Notes: generated from the sequence alone by a model not told the origin. A stretch of 32,000 bases of DNA from Candidatus Saccharimonadota bacterium (GCA_016699935.1 CP064992.1:630001-662000); one strand, 5' to 3'; shown: positions 5,285 through 10,337, counted from the stretch's first letter. Translations and numbers: made by a program.

Positions 5285-5353
5285 AATGAGACAAAACTAT
5301 CAGTTTTTCTCATCGCGCCGAGAAACGGAATGAATCCGTTTCGCGGGCTGCTC
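5285..5353 (-). repeat. two-hairpin module, copy A (inverted orientation relative to copies B and C)
   Basis: The reverse complement reads GAGCAGCC-[hairpin GAAACGGA/TCCGTTTC]-CGCGATGAGA-[hairpin AAAACT/AGTTTT]-TCTCATT. It lies 8 nt downstream of the tRNA-Ala CCA end. Confidence 0.65.
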
Positions 5354-5519
5354 TTTCGAAGCGCAGGACAGTGGTATTCATGGGGCGCAGTGCCTCAAAG
5401 CACAGCGTCTCCACCATTCGATTCACTTGTTCGCTTATGGTAAACCATTGACGTTCGGAGTTGAATGCTCCCAAGTAAGGACAATAAGCAAATTAATAAT
5501 TCAATTAGATCTGACTGAT

Positions 5520-5595
5520 GGGCGATTAGCTCAGCTGGTTAGAGCGCGTCACTGATAATGACGAGGTCGGAGGTTCGAGTCCTCATCGCCCACCA
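5520..5595 (+). tRNA. tRNA-Ile(GAU)
   Basis: GGGCGAT/ATCGCCC acceptor, D-arm GCTC-AGCTGGTTA-GAGC, anticodon arm CGTCA-CTGATAA-TGACG, T-arm GGAGG-TTCGAGT-CCTC, with CCA encoded. The 3' strand of the T-stem is one C short (CCTC instead of CCTCC), which is consistent with a homopolymer undercount. Confidence 0.85.
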
Positions 5596-5619
5596 ATCAG
5601 AGCTAATTGTCAGTTCATT

Positions 5620-5671
5620 TCTCGGTAGAGATTATGGTGAGGTCGGAAGTTCAAAGTCCTCATCACGTACC
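5620..5671 (+). pseudogene. degenerate copy of the tRNA-Ile 3' part
   Basis: GAGGTCGGAAGTTCAAAGTCCTCATCACGTACC (5639-5671) aligns with GAGGTCGGAGGTTCGAGTCCTCATCGCCCACC of the intact gene, with several substitutions and one indel. It is preceded by a faint D-arm/anticodon-arm remnant (CTCGGTAGAG, ATTATGGTG). Confidence 0.5.
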
Positions 5672-5775
5672 GTACATGTCATATTCTGCAAGTGCGGAAT
5701 TTTTGTGATATATATTACAAACACCTGCCGCATTGTCAGGGGCGAGGGTGTTGCAAAAACGACTACAGGTAGGGG

Positions 5776-5804
5776 TTGACCGCCCCTGTAAAAGAGAGTA
5801 GAAT
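5776..5804 (+). promoter_or_regulatory. sigma70-type promoter candidate for the 23S-5S unit
   Basis: TTGACC (5776-5781), a 17-nt spacer, then TAGAAT (5799-5804). It lies upstream of the 5' strand of the 23S processing stem (6137-6155). Confidence 0.45.
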
Positions 5805-6645
5805 TGTACGGATGCTTGAGTTTAGACAGTGAGGCTTCGGTAATACCGGCCAAACGGAAATAAACCGCCAAGCTTTAAGCTTAAACTCAAGCTAAAAACG
5901 CATCGTCGTCTTTTCTTTTTCGAAAGATATGGACACGGTGAAGTGTCTTGAGTCGCATTTTAACAAGTCAAATATGTTAGAGAAGAGAATTTGTTCGCTC
6001 GACATCGCTCGGGGTACCCCCTCGAGAGTTACAGCGAACAAGAAAGCAAGATTATCTGTTTTTCGAACAGATAATCACAGAAGACAAACGGCTATTGATA
6101 TTGATCACGGTGGTTTTCAAATTGCCATACGTGGTACATACCAATAACCAGTCAACCCGGCCCCTATTTTTACGAGTAGGAGTCCGGGATTGAACTCGAC
6201 CGCCGCAAGGCAGCTGAGTTCAATTGCACAAATGCGGAACAAACGAAGTTTGTTCTCGTTAAATCAAGCTCTGACTTTTGACGGATTTATTCCGGCAATA
6301 GTCTGTCCGCTAGAGGAAAAAGAGCAGCGAATCGACGAGGAAAATGTAGTTTTGTTTCGTTTTCGTAAAAAGTTACTCAAGCGCACACAAAGGATGCCTT
6401 GACATGTAATACCGAAGAAGGACGTGATGAGCTGCGAAAAGCTCCGGGGAACAGCCAAATATGTTTTGATCCGGAGATGTCCGAATGGGGAAACCCGGCT
6501 GGAGTAATGTCCAGTCACCGCTATCTGAATATATAGGATAGTGAGTAGGTAACCGCCTGAACTGAAACATCTTAGTAGGGCGAGGAAGAGAAAGTAAACA
6601 ACGATTCCGGTAGTAGTGGCGAGCGAATCCGGAACAGCCCAAACC

Positions 6646-7049: not shown

Positions 7050-7855
7050 TCTTAGTGTCGAGTAGGTCGGGGCACGTGAAATCCTGACTGAATCTGGGGG
7101 GTCCACCCTCCAAGGCTAAATATATTACATGATCGATAGAGAACAAGTACCGCGAGGGAAAGGTTAAAAGAACCCCGGGAGGGGAGTGAAATAGAACCTG
7201 AAATTGTGTGCGTACAAGGAGTCGGAGTCCCGCCTTTGGCGGGATGACGGCGTGCTTTTTGTAGAACGATCCAACGAGTTATTTGCTACGGCAAGCTTAA
7301 GTCATATGACGTAAGCTAAGCGAAAGCGAGTCTGAATAGGGCATTCAGTCGTAGTAAATAGACCCGAAACCAGGTGACCTAACCATGGGCAGGTTGAAGC
7401 GTCGGTAAAACGACGTGGAGGACCGAACCGTAGCGAGTTGCAACACGCCCGGATGACCTGTGGTTAGCGGTGAAATGCCAATCGAACCTGGAGATAGCTG
7501 GTTCTCCTCGAAATAGCTTTAGGGCTAGCGTTGTACGGTAGCTGATAGGGGTAGAGCTCTGTTTCGGACTGGGGGTCGTAAGATTACCCACCCTTGACAA
7601 ACTACGAATACTATCAGTGGAACTACAGCAGTCAGAACGGCGGGGCTAAGCTCGTCGCTCGAAAGGGAAACAGCCCAGATCACCATCTAAGGTCCCCAAG
7701 TCTATGCTAAGTGGGAAACGAGGTGGGGTTTCTTAAACAACTAGGATGTTGGCTTAGAAGCAGCCATTCATTTAAAGAGTGCGTAACAGCTCACTAGTCA
7801 AGAGGCCCTGCGCGGAAAATGTAACGGGGCTAAGCATAGCACCGAAGATGTGAAC

Positions 7856-8008
7856 TTGTGCATAGCACAAGATTTAGCAGAAAAACAGGTAGCATGTTTC
7901 AGAAATTTTTCAGGTATCAGGTTACAGACGAGCCGTCTGCCACCTGCCAAATGCAAAATTTCTGTTATCTGCGACTTGTGACCTGATAAATCATGCGCTA
8001 TGCATGAG
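7856..8008 (+). repeat. 153-nt TIR-bearing insertion element in 23S, copy 2 (helix 45 loop, the classical IVS site)
   Basis: It is inserted between GCACCGAAGATGTGAAC and TGGTAGAGGAGCGTTC. It shares the blocks GATTTAGCAGA, CAGAAATT, TATCAGGTTRCAGACGA and CCTGATAAATC with copy 1. Confidence 0.8.
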
Positions 8009-8505
8009 TGGTAGAGGAGCGTTCCTCTCAGCGTTGAAGTTGAACCGTGAGGTTTGGTGGAGCGTGAGGAAGTGAGAATGTTGGAATGAGTAACCATAAG
8101 GCAGGTGAGAATCCTGCCCACCGAAAGAGCAAGGTTTCCTGGGCCACGGTAATCGTCCCAGGGTTAGTCGGTCCTAAGCCGAGGCGCGTAGCGTAGGCGA
8201 TGGACAACGGGTTAATATTCCCGTACTGGCATGTATTTGTTATATGTGCGCGGCATAGTAGTAGGAGCGGATTCATGGTTATATCCGTCTAAGTGCGAGA
8301 AAAGCGTACGAATGAAACGACCATCAGGTTGAATTTCGATGAAAGTGCTGACTAGAAAAGCAATATAACGCGTGGTACATGCCACCCGTACCGCAAACCG
8401 ACACAGGTGCTCAGGTCGAGAAGACCAAGGTGTACGAGTGATTCTTCGTTAAGGAACTCGGCAAACAAGCGACCGTAACTTCGGGATAAGGTCTGCCCCC
8501 TCACT

Positions 8506-8756
8506 CTGTCTATGACAGGTGAGTATGCCAGTTTTCTTTTTGAAAACCTGGCGTGAATGTAAGTTTATAACTTCTTATGTTCACGACAAATCGAACAATT
8601 TTTGAGACATATCAGAAAGAAAGCTGTCCCAAACACACTAGATGCGTTATTGCTGCAAACTGTTCCCGAAAGGGAAATGAGCAGCCGGAGCAACGAATTT
8701 ATTTCGGTGCACCGCGCGATGAGAAAAACCGTAGGTTTTATCTCATTCACAGCTAG
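8506..8756 (+). other. 23S expansion of about 250 nt in the helix 63 region
   Basis: It is closed by GCCCCCTCACT (8495-8505) pairing with AGTGAGGGGGC (8757-8767). E. coli has about 45-60 nt here. It contains two-hairpin module copy B. Confidence 0.7.
8679..8747 (+). repeat. two-hairpin module, copy B (inside the 23S expansion)
   Basis: GAGCAGCC-GGA-[GCAACGAA/TTCGGTGC]-ACCG-CGCGATGAGA-[AAAACC/GGTTTT]-A-TCTCATT. Confidence 0.65.
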
Positions 8757-9207
8757 AGTGAGGGGGCCGCAGCTAAAGAACCCATGCAACTGTTTACCAA
8801 AAACACAGGTCTGTGCTAACACGAAAGTGGATGTATACGGGTTGACGCCTGCCCGGTGCTGGAAGGTTAAGGGGAGTTGTGTATGCAGCGAACTGAAGCC
8901 CCAGTGAACGGCGGCGGTAACTATAACCGTCCTAAGGTAGCGAAATTCCTTGTCAGGTAAGTTCTGACCCGCACGAATGGCGTAATGATATGGGTACTGT
9001 CTCAACGAAGAGCTCGGTGAAAGTGCATTGACGGTAAAGATGCCGTCTGTCCGCAGCAGGACGAAAAGACCCCGTGCAGCTTTACTATAGCTTGACATTG
9101 AGCCGGGTTATAACATGTGTAGTATAGGTGAGAGACTTTGAAGCCCAGACGCTAGTCTAGGTGGAGTCACCAGTGAAATATCACCCTTGTTATGATCTTG
9201 TTCTTTA

Positions 9208-9405
9208 CGGGGCCCTCAATTTGCGGAGCAAATGGAGGGCATTGATCATTTTTCATTGATAATTTACCATTAATTCTTCATTGTACATGTTTCAATTATG
9301 CATTTTAGAGTGCCAAATGAGACATGCTACCTGATCAATTAATGCAAAATGTCCAATGGTAATGGTAATGACCTCTGAATTTGATCCTCAAATTCAGGGT
9401 CCCGG
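9208..9405 (+). other. AT-rich 23S expansion (about 175 nt extra, helix 79 region near E. coli nt 2200-2225)
   Basis: It lies between CCCTTGTTATGATCTTGTTCTTTACGG and GGACCGTGTCTGGTGGGTAGTTT. It is flanked by hairpins GCCCTCAATTTGC/GCAAATGGAGGGC and CTGAATTTGA/TCAAATTCAG. The centre is strongly AT-rich and contains no ORF. Confidence 0.7.
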
Positions 9406-10266
9406 ACCGTGTCTGGTGGGTAGTTTAACTGGGGCGGTTGCCTCCTAAAGAGTATCGGAGGCGTTCAAAGGTTAGCTAACTACGGATGGAAATCGTAGTG
9501 ATAGTGTATACGCATAAGCTAGCTTGACTGTGAGGCCTACAAGCCGAGCAGGGACGAAAGTCGGAGTAAGTTTTCCGCTGTCAGTACATTTGTACAAGAG
9601 TGTGGTATCGGCAGCGCTTTCGGATAAAAGTTACGCCGGGGATAACAGGCTTATAGCATCCAATAGTTCACATAGACGATGCTGTTTGGCACCTCGATGT
9701 CGGCTCATCTCATCCTGGGGCTGGAGCAGGTCCCAAGGGTCCGGCTGTTCGCCGGTTAAAGAGGTACGTGAGCTGGGTTCAGAACGTCGTGAGACAGTTC
9801 GGTTTATATCCGCTGTGGACGCAAGGAAATTTGAGAGGATCTACCCCTAGTACGAGAGGACCGGGGCGGACGCACCGCTGGTGTATCAGTTGTTCTACCA
9901 AGGGCATTGCTGAGTAGCTATCGTGCGGAATAGATAAGCGCTGAAAGCATATTAAGCGCGAAACTAGCCTCAAGATTAGATTTCCCTATGATCCCCCAGA
10001 AAGACTATCTGGTTGATAGGCGCAAGGTGTACGCACAGCAATGTGTTTAGCCGAAGCGTACTAATAGGGACATTGACTTTTTACGACCTATGAAACGTGC
10101 ATTTTACGTGCATGTTTCATAGGCAAAAAGTGCATTGACTGGTTATTGGTGTGGTTTTACCATACTGGTAGCAACGTTTGTTTACATTGCTAGCTCTTTT
10201 CTAACATCCGTCTACTTTTGTAATGGACATCGACTGGCTCCGTCTCAATCTACCACTGATTGGGAA

Positions 10267-10337
10267 GAGCAGCCGGAGTCGAAAACTACGTTTTTCGACC
10301 CCGCGCGATGAGAAACCTGTGCAACAGGTGTCTCATT
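10267..10337 (+). repeat. two-hairpin module, copy C (23S-5S spacer, 12 nt upstream of 5S)
   Basis: GAGCAGCC-GGA-[GTCGAAAA/TTTTCGAC]-CCCG-CGCGATGAGA-[AACCTGT/ACAGGTG]-TCTCATT. Confidence 0.65.

What the first reader, a model, noticed from the sequence alone, without database searches (positions are those of the whole stretch)
5285..10337. A two-hairpin module of about 70 nt with conserved junctions and covarying stems occurs three times in the rRNA locus
Copy A is at 5285-5353 (inverted orientation, 8 nt after tRNA-Ala). Copy B is at 8679-8747 (inside the 23S helix-63 expansion). Copy C is at 10267-10337 (12 nt before 5S). All share the layout GAGCAGCC, hairpin 1, CGCGATGAGA, hairpin 2, TCTCATT. 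The junction sequences are nearly identical, while both hairpin interiors differ yet stay paired. Hairpin 1 is GAAACGGA/TCCGTTTC, GCAACGAA/TTCGGTGC or GTCGAAAA/TTTTCGAC. Hairpin 2 is AAAACT/AGTTTT, AAAACC/GGTTTT or AACCTGT/ACAGGTG. Conserved single-stranded parts with covarying stems are the signature of a selected structure. Candidates are a processing or protein-binding signal placed next to mature RNA ends, or a small structured mobile repeat. Copy A is in the opposite orientation, which argues for a DNA-level or orientation-independent hairpin role.
Basis: seen in the sequence. Interest (0 to 1): 0.7.

Follow-up and report, generated by a model that had tools for sequence, protein, structure and literature searches.

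The report
Saccharibacteria two-hairpin mobile repeat family
The three look-alike two-hairpin modules in this rRNA locus belong to a previously undescribed family of ~75-nt structured, apparently mobile repeats found across Saccharibacteria (TM7), which tend to sit directly against the ends of tRNA and rRNA genes and carry covariation suggesting a three-stranded fold.

Summary
Three intact copies lie at the stated coordinates, and a fourth, decayed copy (6314-6362) ends 4 nt before 23S. The copies are not local duplications. An exact-junction pattern finds at least 120 loci, almost all in Candidatus Saccharibacteria genomes, and one hairpin-1 allele alone retrieves at least 120 metagenome loci.

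Both stems covary strongly: 96% of cells are paired versus 75% in shuffles, and 17 of 22 pairs show compensatory changes. The 5' purine arm (X + GAGCAG) is a mirror image of the hairpin-2 5' strand.

The element is gained and lost between close relatives. About 22 copies are flanked by long direct repeats of the target (16-88 nt, four of them 100% identical). Its TCTCAT end typically sits 3-14 nt from tRNA 5' ends on the same strand (53 cases versus 4 opposite). It also abuts 5S, 23S and 16S 5' ends, and tRNA CCA ends when inverted.

No Rfam family, known repeat type or paper matches it. Best reading: a new non-autonomous structured mobile repeat that is co-transcribed in stable-RNA leaders. 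Neither the mobilising machinery nor any host function is known.

The parts
5286..5358 (-). Copy A, intact unit, read on the minus strand: 5' arm CGAAA+GAGCAG (5358-5348), hairpin 1 (5348-5315), linker G (5314), hairpin 2 (5313-5286)
   Evidence: Sequence; fold; covariance-model hit 5284-5361 (-), 69.0 bits
5278..5377 (-). The 100-nt block containing copy A that is absent from the close relative L115. It consists of an 8-nt 3' tail (5278-5285), the unit, and 19 further nt (5359-5377). It is inserted exactly after the CCA end of tRNA-Ala.
   Evidence: Alignment of window against L115 empty site; the same geometry in four other loci
6314..6362 (+). Copy D, decayed: 5' arm AGGAAAAAGAGCAG retained, hairpin 1 deleted, hairpin 2 base changed to ACGAGG/TTTCGT. 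Ends 4 nt before the 23S 5' end. Intact copies occupy this same site in L145 and L233.
   Evidence: Covariance-model hit 27.6 bits, E 2.6e-6; sequence; L145/L233
8672..8747 (+). Copy B, intact unit: 5' arm GGGAAAT+GAGCAG (8672-8684), hairpin 1 (8684-8717), G8718, hairpin 2 (8719-8746)
   Evidence: Sequence; fold; covariance-model hit 69.8 bits
8508..8755 (+). 248-nt insertion at the tip of the 23S helix (H63 by my assignment) that carries copy B at its 3' edge. The relative L115 has different content here.
   Evidence: cmscan alignment shows *[248]* at model positions about 1730-1770; L115 comparison
10261..10337 (+). Copy C, intact unit: 5' arm TGGGAA+GAGCAG (10261-10272), hairpin 1 (10272-10306), G10307, hairpin 2 (10308-10336)
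   Evidence: Sequence; fold; covariance-model hit 66.7 bits
10338..10349 (+). 3' tail of copy C, AGGCGAAGCCGC, with mini-hairpin GGCGAAGCC. The same tail ends several copies elsewhere that are bounded by direct repeats, so copy C is flush with the 5S 5' end (10350).
   Evidence: Sequence; 3' tails of L081, L062, L027, L108; 5S coordinates

Best explanation
The modules are copies of a previously undescribed, Saccharibacteria-restricted family of small (about 75-95 nt) non-autonomous structured repeats that are, or recently were, mobile.

Anatomy (shown): a 5' purine arm (G-R-R-A-A + GAGCAG); hairpin 1 with a variable stem, a closing GCC/G(C)GC with a bulged C, and a conserved non-Watson-Crick position; a one-nucleotide linker; hairpin 2 with a conserved base AUGAGA/UCUCAU, usually an A.G mismatch, and a variable top; and a short variable 3' tail, often a GCGAAGC-type mini-hairpin. 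The 5' arm is the mirror image of the 5' strand of hairpin 2 and co-varies with it. This fits a third strand lying along hairpin 2 (a triplex-type fold), with hairpin 1 at the turn.

Behaviour (shown): copies are gained and lost between close relatives. Copies inserted at gene boundaries are bracketed by long, variable direct repeats of the target (16-88 nt) plus short filler. The TCTCAT/3'-tail end lies against the 5' ends of tRNA, 5S, 23S and 16S genes on the same strand, or against tRNA CCA ends when inverted. Copies also sit in 23S expansion loops, always in the sense orientation.

Mechanism (inferred): the conserved junction and triplex core is the recognition structure, on single-stranded nucleic acid, for an unknown trans-acting copy-and-paste machinery. 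Landing sites are places where an extra self-folding unit is harmless because it is co-transcribed and then trimmed away (pre-tRNA and pre-rRNA leaders) or tolerated (operon spacers, rRNA expansion tips). In this window, A, B and C are three such insertions from different subfamilies, and D is a decaying one.
For: Dispersed family: at least 120 loci match an exact-junction pattern, nearly all in Saccharibacteria MAGs and often several contigs per MAG. One hairpin-1 allele alone retrieves at least 120 metagenome loci, and about 110 of 118 occurrences lie inside a module. There are no hits in viral contigs.

Sharp unit edges: flanks carry essentially no information.

Selected structure: 96.1% of cells paired versus 75.0% in shuffles; 17 of 22 pairs have compensatory changes; slid controls give 27-58%. 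The hairpin-1 closing pairs are Watson-Crick in 121 of 126 copies across four pair combinations.

Third-strand rule: the arm base equals the purine of the corresponding hairpin-2 pair at 85.3% of variable positions, versus 60% (maximum 67%) when arms are permuted among copies. About eight sequence classes all obey the rule. In the junction-unbiased set, all five ...ATAG arms co-occur only with GATA(A/G)G hairpin bases. L078 and L176 show A-to-G in the arm together with A-U to G-C in the stem.

Mobility: copies A and B are absent from L115 (identical 16S 3' end, 23S about 95%), while L115 has its own copy that the window lacks. Many other orthologous empty sites exist. 27 of 190 copies have flanking direct repeats above the 99.5th percentile of permuted controls, about 22 of them genuine, and four pairs are 100% identical over 24-50 nt. 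Decayed copies exist.

Targeting: a tRNA 5' end lies 3-14 nt downstream on the same strand in 53 copies, versus 4 on the opposite strand. All five opposite-strand cases, including window copy A, abut the exact CCA end. The module-to-tRNA spacer lengths match the lengths of 3' tails defined by direct repeats. The promoter motif is 10-60 nt from module-free tRNAs but 98-149 nt from module-bearing ones.

Flanking genes are ordinary housekeeping genes.
Against: No mobilising enzyme was identified, and no transposase recurs next to copies (that test is not exhaustive). Classical bacterial transposition does not produce 16-88-nt target duplications.

Copies upstream of stable-RNA genes are significantly more intact than the rest (median profile score 52 versus 35-43; p = 7e-5). 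The same tRNA or rRNA sites are occupied in several genomes (tRNA-Arg in L054, L074 and L113; the 5S and 23S 5' ends). Both observations could mean host-level purifying selection, that is, a function.

The two copies of a flanking repeat differ almost only at synonymous sites (about 64:15). Simple insertion followed by neutral decay does not predict this.

The triplex is inferred from covariation alone, and subfamily descent inflates the permutation statistics. In the A/C-type classes the rule needs a one-base-pair skip and a switch of the purine strand.

Both data sets are ascertained. The genome set forces exact junctions and the metagenome set forces one hairpin-1 allele.
Confidence: 0.55

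Rival explanations
1. A host cis-acting RNA module of stable-RNA leaders. It is transcribed between the promoter and the mature 5' end, folds into a compact two-hairpin triplex unit, and serves processing or stability. For example, it could insulate tRNA or rRNA folding from upstream sequence. Or it could cap the 3' end of the upstream RNA once RNase P (or the 5S/23S 5' nuclease) cuts a few nucleotides downstream, loosely analogous to the MALAT1 triple helix next to an RNase P site. A conserved Saccharibacteria protein would read GAGCAG/CGAUGAGA.
For: Strict sense orientation and tight spacing to tRNA 5' ends (53 versus 4; 3-14 nt). Location upstream of 5S, 23S and 16S in several genomes, and sense orientation of all 23S-internal copies. 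tRNA-linked copies lie downstream of a TATAAT-type promoter, so they are transcribed. Copies in this context are the most intact (p = 7e-5). G.U outnumbers A.C among stem mismatches, 36 to 19.
Against: Only 3 of 108 unbiased tRNA genes have it, and the window's tRNA-Ala(cgc) has an 11-nt spacer from its -10 box with no module. Copies are lost or gained between close relatives, even at rRNA sites, and the copy upstream of this window's 23S is decayed. About a third of CDS-context copies are antisense to both neighbours. G.U pairs are only about 1% of stem pairs and are not enriched over other mismatches beyond neutral expectation. By my knowledge, purine-motif triplexes are poorly supported for RNA.
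Confidence: 0.25
2. A REP/RAYT-like or IS200/IS605-derived (PATE-like) element. Hairpins in single-stranded DNA would be recognised by a Y1/HUH transposase encoded once per genome.
For: Non-autonomous, hairpin-based, intergenic and found in both orientations. Stems are almost purely Watson-Crick. Mismatch positions inside the stems are conserved, as in hairpins recognised by such enzymes. In IS608, by my knowledge, guide and cleavage sites interact through non-canonical base contacts, a loose precedent for the arm-hairpin covariation.
Against: These systems make no target duplication, whereas 16-88-nt flanking repeats are seen here. There is no conserved flanking tetranucleotide target and no REP-type GTAG. 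Stems differ between copies within one genome. No Y1 transposase appears among about 170 flanking genes. GC skew gives no sign of a replication-fixed orientation (a weak test).
Confidence: 0.08
3. A new class of self-cleaving ribozyme. The conserved junction nucleotides and the triplex would form a catalytic core that cuts near the element's edge.
For: Conserved core with freely varying stems, multi-copy dispersed distribution, sharp boundaries, and proximity to RNA ends.
Against: No similarity to any Rfam ribozyme on either strand, even at E up to 10. Most conserved nucleotides are paired. The distance to mature ends varies (3-14 nt). Many copies are antisense. Nothing here tests catalysis.
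Confidence: 0.06
4. An rrn antitermination signal (boxB hairpin plus boxA). On the + strand, copy A ends with GGCTGCTCTTTCGAA, which resembles boxA TGCTCTTTAACAA.
For: Copy A lies in the 16S-23S spacer in the orientation that would put the boxA-like string on the rRNA transcript.
Against: No match at 3 or fewer mismatches overlaps any copy. The resemblance depends on the A-rich arm class and disappears in G-rich classes. Copies B, C and D, and the tRNA-linked copies, have the opposite orientation.
Confidence: 0.02
5. Local duplication or misassembly confined to this assembly.
For: None beyond the clustering of three copies within 5 kb.
Against: Hundreds of copies in independent assemblies. The three window copies differ throughout both stems.
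Confidence: 0

Closest known systems
REP/BIME and REPIN elements of Enterobacteria and Pseudomonas
   Same: Short, non-coding, hairpin-forming intergenic repeats, tens of copies or more per genome, in both orientations, often within operons just after stop codons. They are co-transcribed and can act as RNA 3'-end stabilisers.
   Different: No GTAG motif. Two different hairpins rather than one palindrome or an inverted doublet. Stems vary between copies while the junctions stay invariant. Also different: mirror-repeat arm, long flanking target repeats, strong preference for stable-RNA gene ends, and no RAYT gene seen.
Rickettsia palindromic elements (RPE) and other repeats of reduced genomes (BOX, ERIC, Correia, MIRU)
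   Same: Small structured selfish repeats in a small-genome symbiont. They are tolerated inside transcribed regions, including RNA genes. BOX is modular, and MIRU sits between stop and start codons in operons.
   Different: No in-frame coding insertion: the repeat period is a multiple of 3 in only 7 of 22 cases and frames are closed. No terminal inverted repeats and no TA duplication. The sequence and architecture are different.
Intramolecular triple helices (H-DNA-type purine.purine-pyrimidine triplex; pyrimidine-motif Pu-loop-Py-loop-Py fold; RNA triple helices such as the MALAT1/MEN-beta 3' end next to an RNase P site)
   Same: The covariation follows a triplex code. The arm base equals the purine of each hairpin pair (A with A-U, G with G-C). 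On the complementary strand this reads U.A-U and C+.G-C, with G opposite the U-A inversion. Like MALAT1, the structure sits a few nucleotides upstream of an RNase P cleavage site.
   Different: No U-rich internal loop or A-rich tail. On the sense strand the third strand is the 5' arm, not the 3' end. In most classes the purines switch strand and one pair is skipped. No physical evidence exists for the triplex.
23S rRNA intervening sequences and CPR rRNA insertions
   Same: Copy B and five related copies are extra sequence at the tips of variable 23S helices.
   Different: No intron or homing-endonuclease features. The same element also lies outside rRNA. PMC11270868 reports rRNA insertions of 100 bp or more as the exception in Saccharibacteria.
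Eukaryotic SINEs and tRNA-gene-targeting retroelements (Ty3, Dictyostelium TRE)
   Same: Small, non-autonomous, structured units; variable-length target duplications with filler; orientation-specific accumulation just upstream of tRNA genes.
   Different: Bacterial host. No poly(A) tail or internal Pol III promoter. No reverse transcriptase has been linked to it. An RNA intermediate is purely conjectural.

Membership tests
Any Rfam 15 family (including hammerhead, twister, pistol, hatchet, HDV-like) | Covariance-model match at or near the family's gathering score | tested here: not met
   No hit over any copy at gathering thresholds. At E up to 1-10 on both strands, only chance-level miRNA, snoRNA and frameshift-site hits at 9-15 bits.
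REP / REPIN (RAYT-mobilised) | Conserved 5' GT(A/G)G tetranucleotide followed by a single imperfect palindrome, or an inverted doublet | tested here: not met
   The unit begins G-R-R-A-A-GAGCAG and contains two unrelated hairpins.
REP / REPIN (RAYT-mobilised) | A RAYT (Y1 transposase) gene in the genome, typically flanked by the repeats | tested here: inconclusive
   No Y1_Tnp domain among the top Pfam families of about 170 flanking ORFs. Whole genomes were not available.
MITE | Terminal inverted repeats and a short fixed-length target-site duplication | tested here: not met
   The ends (GGAAAAGAGCAG... and ...GTCTCAT) are not complementary. No 3-8-nt duplication at any offset. Flanking repeats, where present, are 16-88 nt and variable.
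IS200/IS605-derived PATE | Subterminal hairpins, insertion 3' of a fixed tetra- or pentanucleotide, and no target duplication | tested here: not met
   Flank information content is about 0. Long target duplications are present.
rrn boxB-boxA-boxC antiterminator | BoxA consensus (TGCTCTTTAACAA-like) on the rRNA transcript strand | tested here: not met
   No match at 3 or fewer mismatches overlaps a copy. Copies B, C and D are in the wrong orientation.
23S rRNA intervening sequence (IVS) | Extended helix at a variable 23S site, excised by RNase III without religation | not testable with these tools
   The location in a variable helix is shown. Excision or fragmentation needs RNA data.
ENE / MALAT1-type RNA triple helix | U-rich internal loop clamping a 3' A-rich tract (U.A-U triples) | tested here: not met
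   No U-rich internal loop and no A-rich 3' tail. The third strand is the 5' purine arm.
Structured interspersed repeat (generic kind) | Multi-copy, dispersed, non-coding, conserved secondary structure, with presence/absence polymorphism | tested here: met

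The most novel reading that the evidence does not exclude
The element is a bacterial SINE-like retroposon, or another RNA-templated mobile unit. The mobile intermediate would be the leader RNA itself, with its 3' end created by RNase P or by the 5S/23S 5'-end nuclease. 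New copies would arise by reverse transcription with template switching or priming on mature stable RNAs. This would explain why insertions are flush with RNA-defined positions (tRNA +1, the CCA-3' end, the 5S 5' end). It would also explain why CDS-context insertions carry variable 5' and 3' tails and long, variable target duplications. The triplex-capped fold would protect or mark the RNA.
Probability: 0.12. Interest if true: 0.92.

Novelty: new variant of a known kind. Interest (0 to 1): 0.7.

Why it matters
Saccharibacteria are ultrasmall, genome-reduced epibionts in which almost nothing is known about non-coding elements.

- A 75-nt unit conserved across the whole lineage would be a new kind of bacterial interspersed element. 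It combines invariant junctions, freely covarying stems and a sequence code that looks like a natural intramolecular triple helix.
- It could also be a rare natural test case for triplex formation in vivo.
- Its habit of sitting exactly against the ends of tRNA and rRNA genes, together with the unusually long target duplications, points to an insertion mechanism not described for bacterial repeats.
- In practical terms, it explains otherwise puzzling 'expansions' in Saccharibacteria rRNA operons. It also provides a lineage-specific marker, and a source of assembly and annotation artefacts, for TM7 genomes.

Tried and rejected
1. Promoter hypothesis (TCTCAT as the -10 box, ATGAGA as the -35 box). 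Rejected: tRNA-linked copies have a proper TATAAT box with a CC(C/T)CTGTT motif 10-60 nt upstream of the element. That motif is a general tRNA-promoter feature, equally common at module-free tRNAs.
2. Orientation fixed relative to replication. Local GC skew follows gene orientation, not element orientation (92 of 169). This is a weak test and gives no support.
3. Terminator role. The distribution over co-directional, convergent and divergent intergenic regions (63, 7, 10) shows no convergent enrichment, and there is no U-tract.
4. BoxA antiterminator and known ribozymes or other Rfam families: no match.
5. K-turn or box C/D reading of GAUGA: no partner CUGA, and only chance-level snoRNA hits.
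6. In-frame translated insertion (RPE-like), proposed to explain the synonymous-only divergence of the flanking repeats: rejected.
7. Association with particular gene families or a neighbouring transposase: none found.
8. Phage carriage: 0 hits in viral contigs.
9. Pairing of 23S, 16S and 5S flanks to place the copies within processing stems: duplexfold gave only unspecific long-range pairings, so it was uninformative.
10. Short target-site duplications of 3-8 nt: none.
11. Literature searches: no prior description found. Subscription-only papers were not searchable.

Full report
**1. The observation**

The three copies exist exactly as described. The window holds a Saccharibacteria-type rRNA locus:
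- 16S at 1363-2927
- a 2.3-kb spacer
- tRNA-Ala at 5201-5277
- tRNA-Ile at 5519-5594
- 23S at 6366-10085
- 5S at 10350-10466

Copy A (minus strand) begins 8 nt after tRNA-Ala. Copy B lies at the 3' edge of a 248-nt insertion at the tip of the 23S helix at Rfam model positions about 1730-1770, which I assign to H63. Copy C ends 12 nt before 5S.

The shared 11-mer GCGCGATGAGA occurs three times exactly, and only in these copies. Each copy folds into two hairpins, with z-scores of -4 to -5 on either strand.

A covariance model built solely from copies in other genomes scores the three copies at 67-70 bits. It also reveals a fourth, decayed copy at 6314-6362. That copy lacks hairpin 1 and ends 4 nt before the 23S 5' end.

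**2. A large lineage-specific family**

Virtually all are labelled Candidatus Saccharibacteria, Saccharimonadales or Saccharimonadia, often with several contigs per MAG. That gives 124 copies. The same pattern finds nothing in viral contigs.

As a sample unbiased for the junctions, I scanned metagenomes for one common hairpin-1 allele (CAAAATGTATTCCATTTTG). It gave at least 120 loci, and about 110 of 118 occurrences lie inside a full module.

In 726 kb of fetched loci the model finds about 13 copies beyond the seeds. Rfam has no counterpart on either strand. Full-text literature searches found no description.

**3. Anatomy**

Information content is near zero in the flanks. It rises at positions -5/-6 (G-R-R-A-A before GAGCAG) and stops after TCTCAT.

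Hairpin 1:
- It is closed by GCC/G(C)GC with a bulged C.
- The next two pairs covary almost perfectly: CG/CG 68, GG/CC 32, AG/CT 12, CA/TG 9.
- A conserved non-Watson-Crick position follows (A.C in 72 of 126 copies).
- Above that sits a variable stem and loop drawn from a limited set of recurring alleles.

Hairpin 2:
- Its base is the invariant AUGAGA/UCUCAU.
- An A.G opposition usually follows (98 of 126 copies), then a variable top.

Variant copies show that the minimal junctions are GAGCAG and CGAUGAGA. The hairpin-2 base can change with compensation (CUGAGA/UCUCAG, UAGAGA/UCUCUA, UCGAGG/CCUCGA, and others). Hairpin 1 can be shortened or replaced by a branched two-hairpin insert.

On a model-based alignment of 117 copies:
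- 96.1% of cells are paired, versus 75.0% in shuffles.
- 17 of 22 pairs show double changes (470 cells).
- Slid controls fall to 27-58%.

That alignment is fitted to the model. However, my anchor-based counts, which do not depend on the model, agree with it.

**4. A third strand**

The purine tract 5' of hairpin 1 tracks the class of hairpin 2. It does so as a mirror image, not as a reverse complement. Read 3' to 5' from GAG, each arm base equals the purine of the successive hairpin-2 base pair:
- A with A-U: 276 cases
- G with C-G: 207 cases
- G with G-C: 43 cases

The rule holds at 85.3% of variable positions. It holds at 60% (maximum 67% of 1000) when arms are permuted among copies. About eight distinct classes all obey it (for example GGAAAA with A4CC, GGGAA with A2CCC, AGGGGA with GGGGA, GGAGGA with GGAGGA).

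The symmetry runs through the junction, because GAGCAG mirrors GAUGAG. Hairpin 1 is therefore flanked by mirror-repeat arms, one of which is also the 5' strand of hairpin 2.

Rare variants in the 'invariant' part behave accordingly:
- All five ...ATAG arms occur only with GATA(A/G)G hairpin bases.
- L078 and L176 have G at arm position -1 together with an A-U to G-C change at the matching pair.

From established triplex chemistry (my knowledge), this is the purine-motif code (G.G-C, A.A-T) on the sense strand. On the complementary strand it is the pyrimidine-motif code (U.A-U, C+.G-C, with G opposite the U-A inversion), in the classic Pu-loop-Py-loop-Py topology.

Classes in which the purines switch strand need a one-pair skip. 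G-rich classes, with no switch, need none.

This is covariation evidence only. Shared descent of subfamilies inflates the permutation test, although it does not explain why each class is mirror-symmetric.

**5. Which strand, RNA or DNA?**

- G.U pairs make up about 1% of stem pairs.
- Among disrupted pairs, G.U is no commoner than neutral decay would predict (26 versus 96).
- G.U (36) does outnumber A.C (19), a weak lean towards RNA-level tolerance on the sense strand.
- The complementary strand folds slightly better in 100 of 126 copies, because A.C becomes G.U.

The question is open.

**6. Gain, loss and target duplications**

L115 has an identical 16S 3' end and a 23S about 95% identical. 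Compared with the window:
- It lacks the 100-nt block containing copy A. The empty site shows that this block was inserted exactly after the tRNA-Ala CCA.
- It lacks copy B and has different H63 content.
- It has its own copy after 16S, at a site that is empty in the window.

A flank-based search found many further orthologous filled/empty pairs.

Local alignment of upstream against downstream flanks showed that 27 of 190 non-redundant copies have direct repeats above the 99.5th percentile of permuted controls. Four of these are tRNA paralogy, leaving about 22 genuine cases.

The layout is: [repeat of 16-88 nt, median about 37] - 0-29 nt - unit - 1-16 nt - [repeat].

Four pairs are 100% identical over 24-50 nt (L063, L070, L189, L081), which indicates recent events.

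The repeats are gene ends:
- C-terminal codons plus the stop codon
- Shine-Dalgarno sequence plus an overlapping stop/start
- N-terminal codons of a divergent gene (LepA, TIM, MsrA, an IscS-like protein)

The 3' tails are often AGGCGAAGCCGC-type mini-hairpins, identical to the sequence between copy C and 5S.

The window's own copies show no detectable flanking repeats.

**7. Where copies sit**

ORF-only analysis suggested ordinary intergenic repeats in both orientations next to housekeeping genes. Adding tRNA and rRNA annotation changed the picture.

In 53 copies a tRNA gene starts 3-14 nt (mode 6-9) after the unit on the same strand. Only 4 have an opposite-strand tRNA downstream, and 1 has a same-strand tRNA upstream. 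Many tRNA identities are involved.

All five opposite-strand cases, including window copy A, abut the exact CCA end with the TCTCAT side.

Other copies lie:
- directly upstream of 5S (window C, L098, L143, L149, L211, L106)
- directly upstream of 23S (L145 and L233 intact; window D decayed)
- directly upstream of 16S (L084)
- inside 23S at several variable sites, always in the sense orientation

The spacer-to-tRNA lengths match the lengths of the repeat-defined 3' tails. The element, including its tail, is therefore flush with mature RNA ends.

tRNA-linked copies lie downstream of a TATAAT box with a CC(C/T)CTGTT motif. That motif is a general tRNA-promoter feature. It lies 10-60 nt from module-free tRNAs but 98-149 nt from module-bearing ones, so the module is an insertion of about 87 nt into a transcribed leader.

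In the junction-unbiased set, 51 of about 111 real copies are in this context, and they are the most intact (median score 52 versus 35-43; p = 7e-5). Even so, only 3 of 108 tRNA genes not linked to a seed copy carry a module. The window's tRNA-Ala(cgc) has none.

In CDS contexts the orientation is 52 sense to 30 antisense.

**8. Interpretation**

Shown:
- a dispersed, lineage-wide family
- selected hairpins
- covariation between the arm and hairpin 2
- presence/absence polymorphism
- long target duplications
- end-abutting placement at stable-RNA genes

Inferred: the conserved core is the recognition structure for an unknown copy-and-paste process acting on single strands, and leaders, operon spacers and rRNA loop tips are permissive sites.

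I put 0.55 on this 'structured mobile repeat' reading. I put 0.25 on a genuine host RNA function in stable-RNA leaders. That reading is supported by the orientation, the spacing and the better preservation of those copies. It is weakened by rarity among tRNAs, loss in relatives, and antisense and decayed copies. The two readings are not mutually exclusive. Smaller weights go to a REP/IS200-type ssDNA mechanism, a new ribozyme, and boxA.

**9. Unexplained**

The two copies of a flanking repeat differ almost only at synonymous sites of the true reading frame (about 64:15; for example 8:0, 9:0, 8:0 and 6:0), although one copy should be dead. In-frame read-through is excluded.

Two explanations would fit: gene conversion between the repeats, or repeats that derive from different alleles through homology-facilitated illegitimate recombination of transformed DNA. 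Neither was tested.

The flush placement at RNA-defined positions, together with variable tails and long target duplications, leaves room for an RNA-templated mechanism (see the novel case).

**10. Limits**

- Both large samples are ascertained: one requires exact junctions, the other requires one hairpin-1 allele.
- ORF calls are crude.
- Loci are 1-15 kb fragments, so copy number per genome and co-occurring enzymes could not be measured.
- No experiment bears on the fold, on cleavage or on mobility.

Noticed in passing
window 3282-4851 (minus strand): The 2.3-kb 16S-to-tRNA-Ala spacer holds a GNAT acetyltransferase ORF (3282-3890) and fragments of an IS3-like transposase: an rve integrase core at 4107-4505 and an HTH at 4573-4851. 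The rRNA operon is therefore interrupted by mobile-element debris.
   Followed up: partly
window 6894-7055 and 7853-8014 (inside 23S); L115:6393-6520: A second, unrelated repeat family of about 160 nt (72-77% identical copies, with an internal 46-nt inverted repeat at 7885-7979) occupies two other 23S insertion sites. In the relative L115 a related element fills H63 instead of copy B. The 23S is 3720 nt against a 2925-position model, although PMC11270868 reports rRNA insertions as exceptional in Saccharibacteria.
   Followed up: partly
window 5024-5100 versus 5192-5268: A partial duplicate of tRNA-Ala (leader plus 5' half, 87% identical over 53 nt) lies 168 nt upstream of the real gene. It is also present in L115. 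It could be the relic of an old target duplication, but the intervening 91 nt shows no module.
   Followed up: partly
window 5201-5594: The spacer tRNAs are in the order Ala then Ile, the reverse of the usual bacterial Ile-Ala order.
   Followed up: no
Related loci, 10-60 nt upstream of tRNA genes (e.g. L052, L099, L015, L213): A conserved promoter-proximal motif, CC(C/T)CTGTT, lies next to TATAAT-like boxes (on either side of the -10 box) in about a quarter of Saccharibacteria tRNA genes, with or without a module. It is absent from this window's tRNA and rrn promoters.
   Followed up: partly
L065, L071, L108, L062, L059, L061 and others (flanking repeats of modules): The two copies of the duplicated gene end differ almost only by synonymous changes (about 64 synonymous to 15 non-synonymous codon differences), which is unexpected for a dead duplicate.
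   Followed up: partly
L041:70-273; L033:1566-2746; L048:924-1554: Local arrays. L041 has repeat-module-repeat-module-repeat at the end of a gene encoding ...IPAEAFTVMLKRD*. L033 has three modules between consecutive ribosomal-protein genes within 1.2 kb. L048 has a duplicated gene-plus-module unit with a 552-nt period.
   Followed up: no
L134, L203, L205, L206; L141/L237, L209, L225, L227: Hybrid variants keep the 5' arm, hairpin 1 and GCGCGAT(G) but replace hairpin 2. One group has GGGGTCCCC-hairpin-GGGGTAAAG. The other has a hairpin followed by ATATGC(A/C)GAGCC. These may be related subfamilies or fusions with another element.
   Followed up: no
1-6 nt upstream of the purine arm in many copies (e.g. 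L019, L033, L078, L215, L222): A weak recurring motif, (T)G(C/T)AGC(T/C), often precedes the arm. The unit may extend further 5' in some subfamilies.
   Followed up: no
L060 (contig DATHNF010000037.1): This contig carries two copies but belongs to a MAG labelled Verrucomicrobiia. It is probably a mis-binned Saccharibacteria contig.
   Followed up: no
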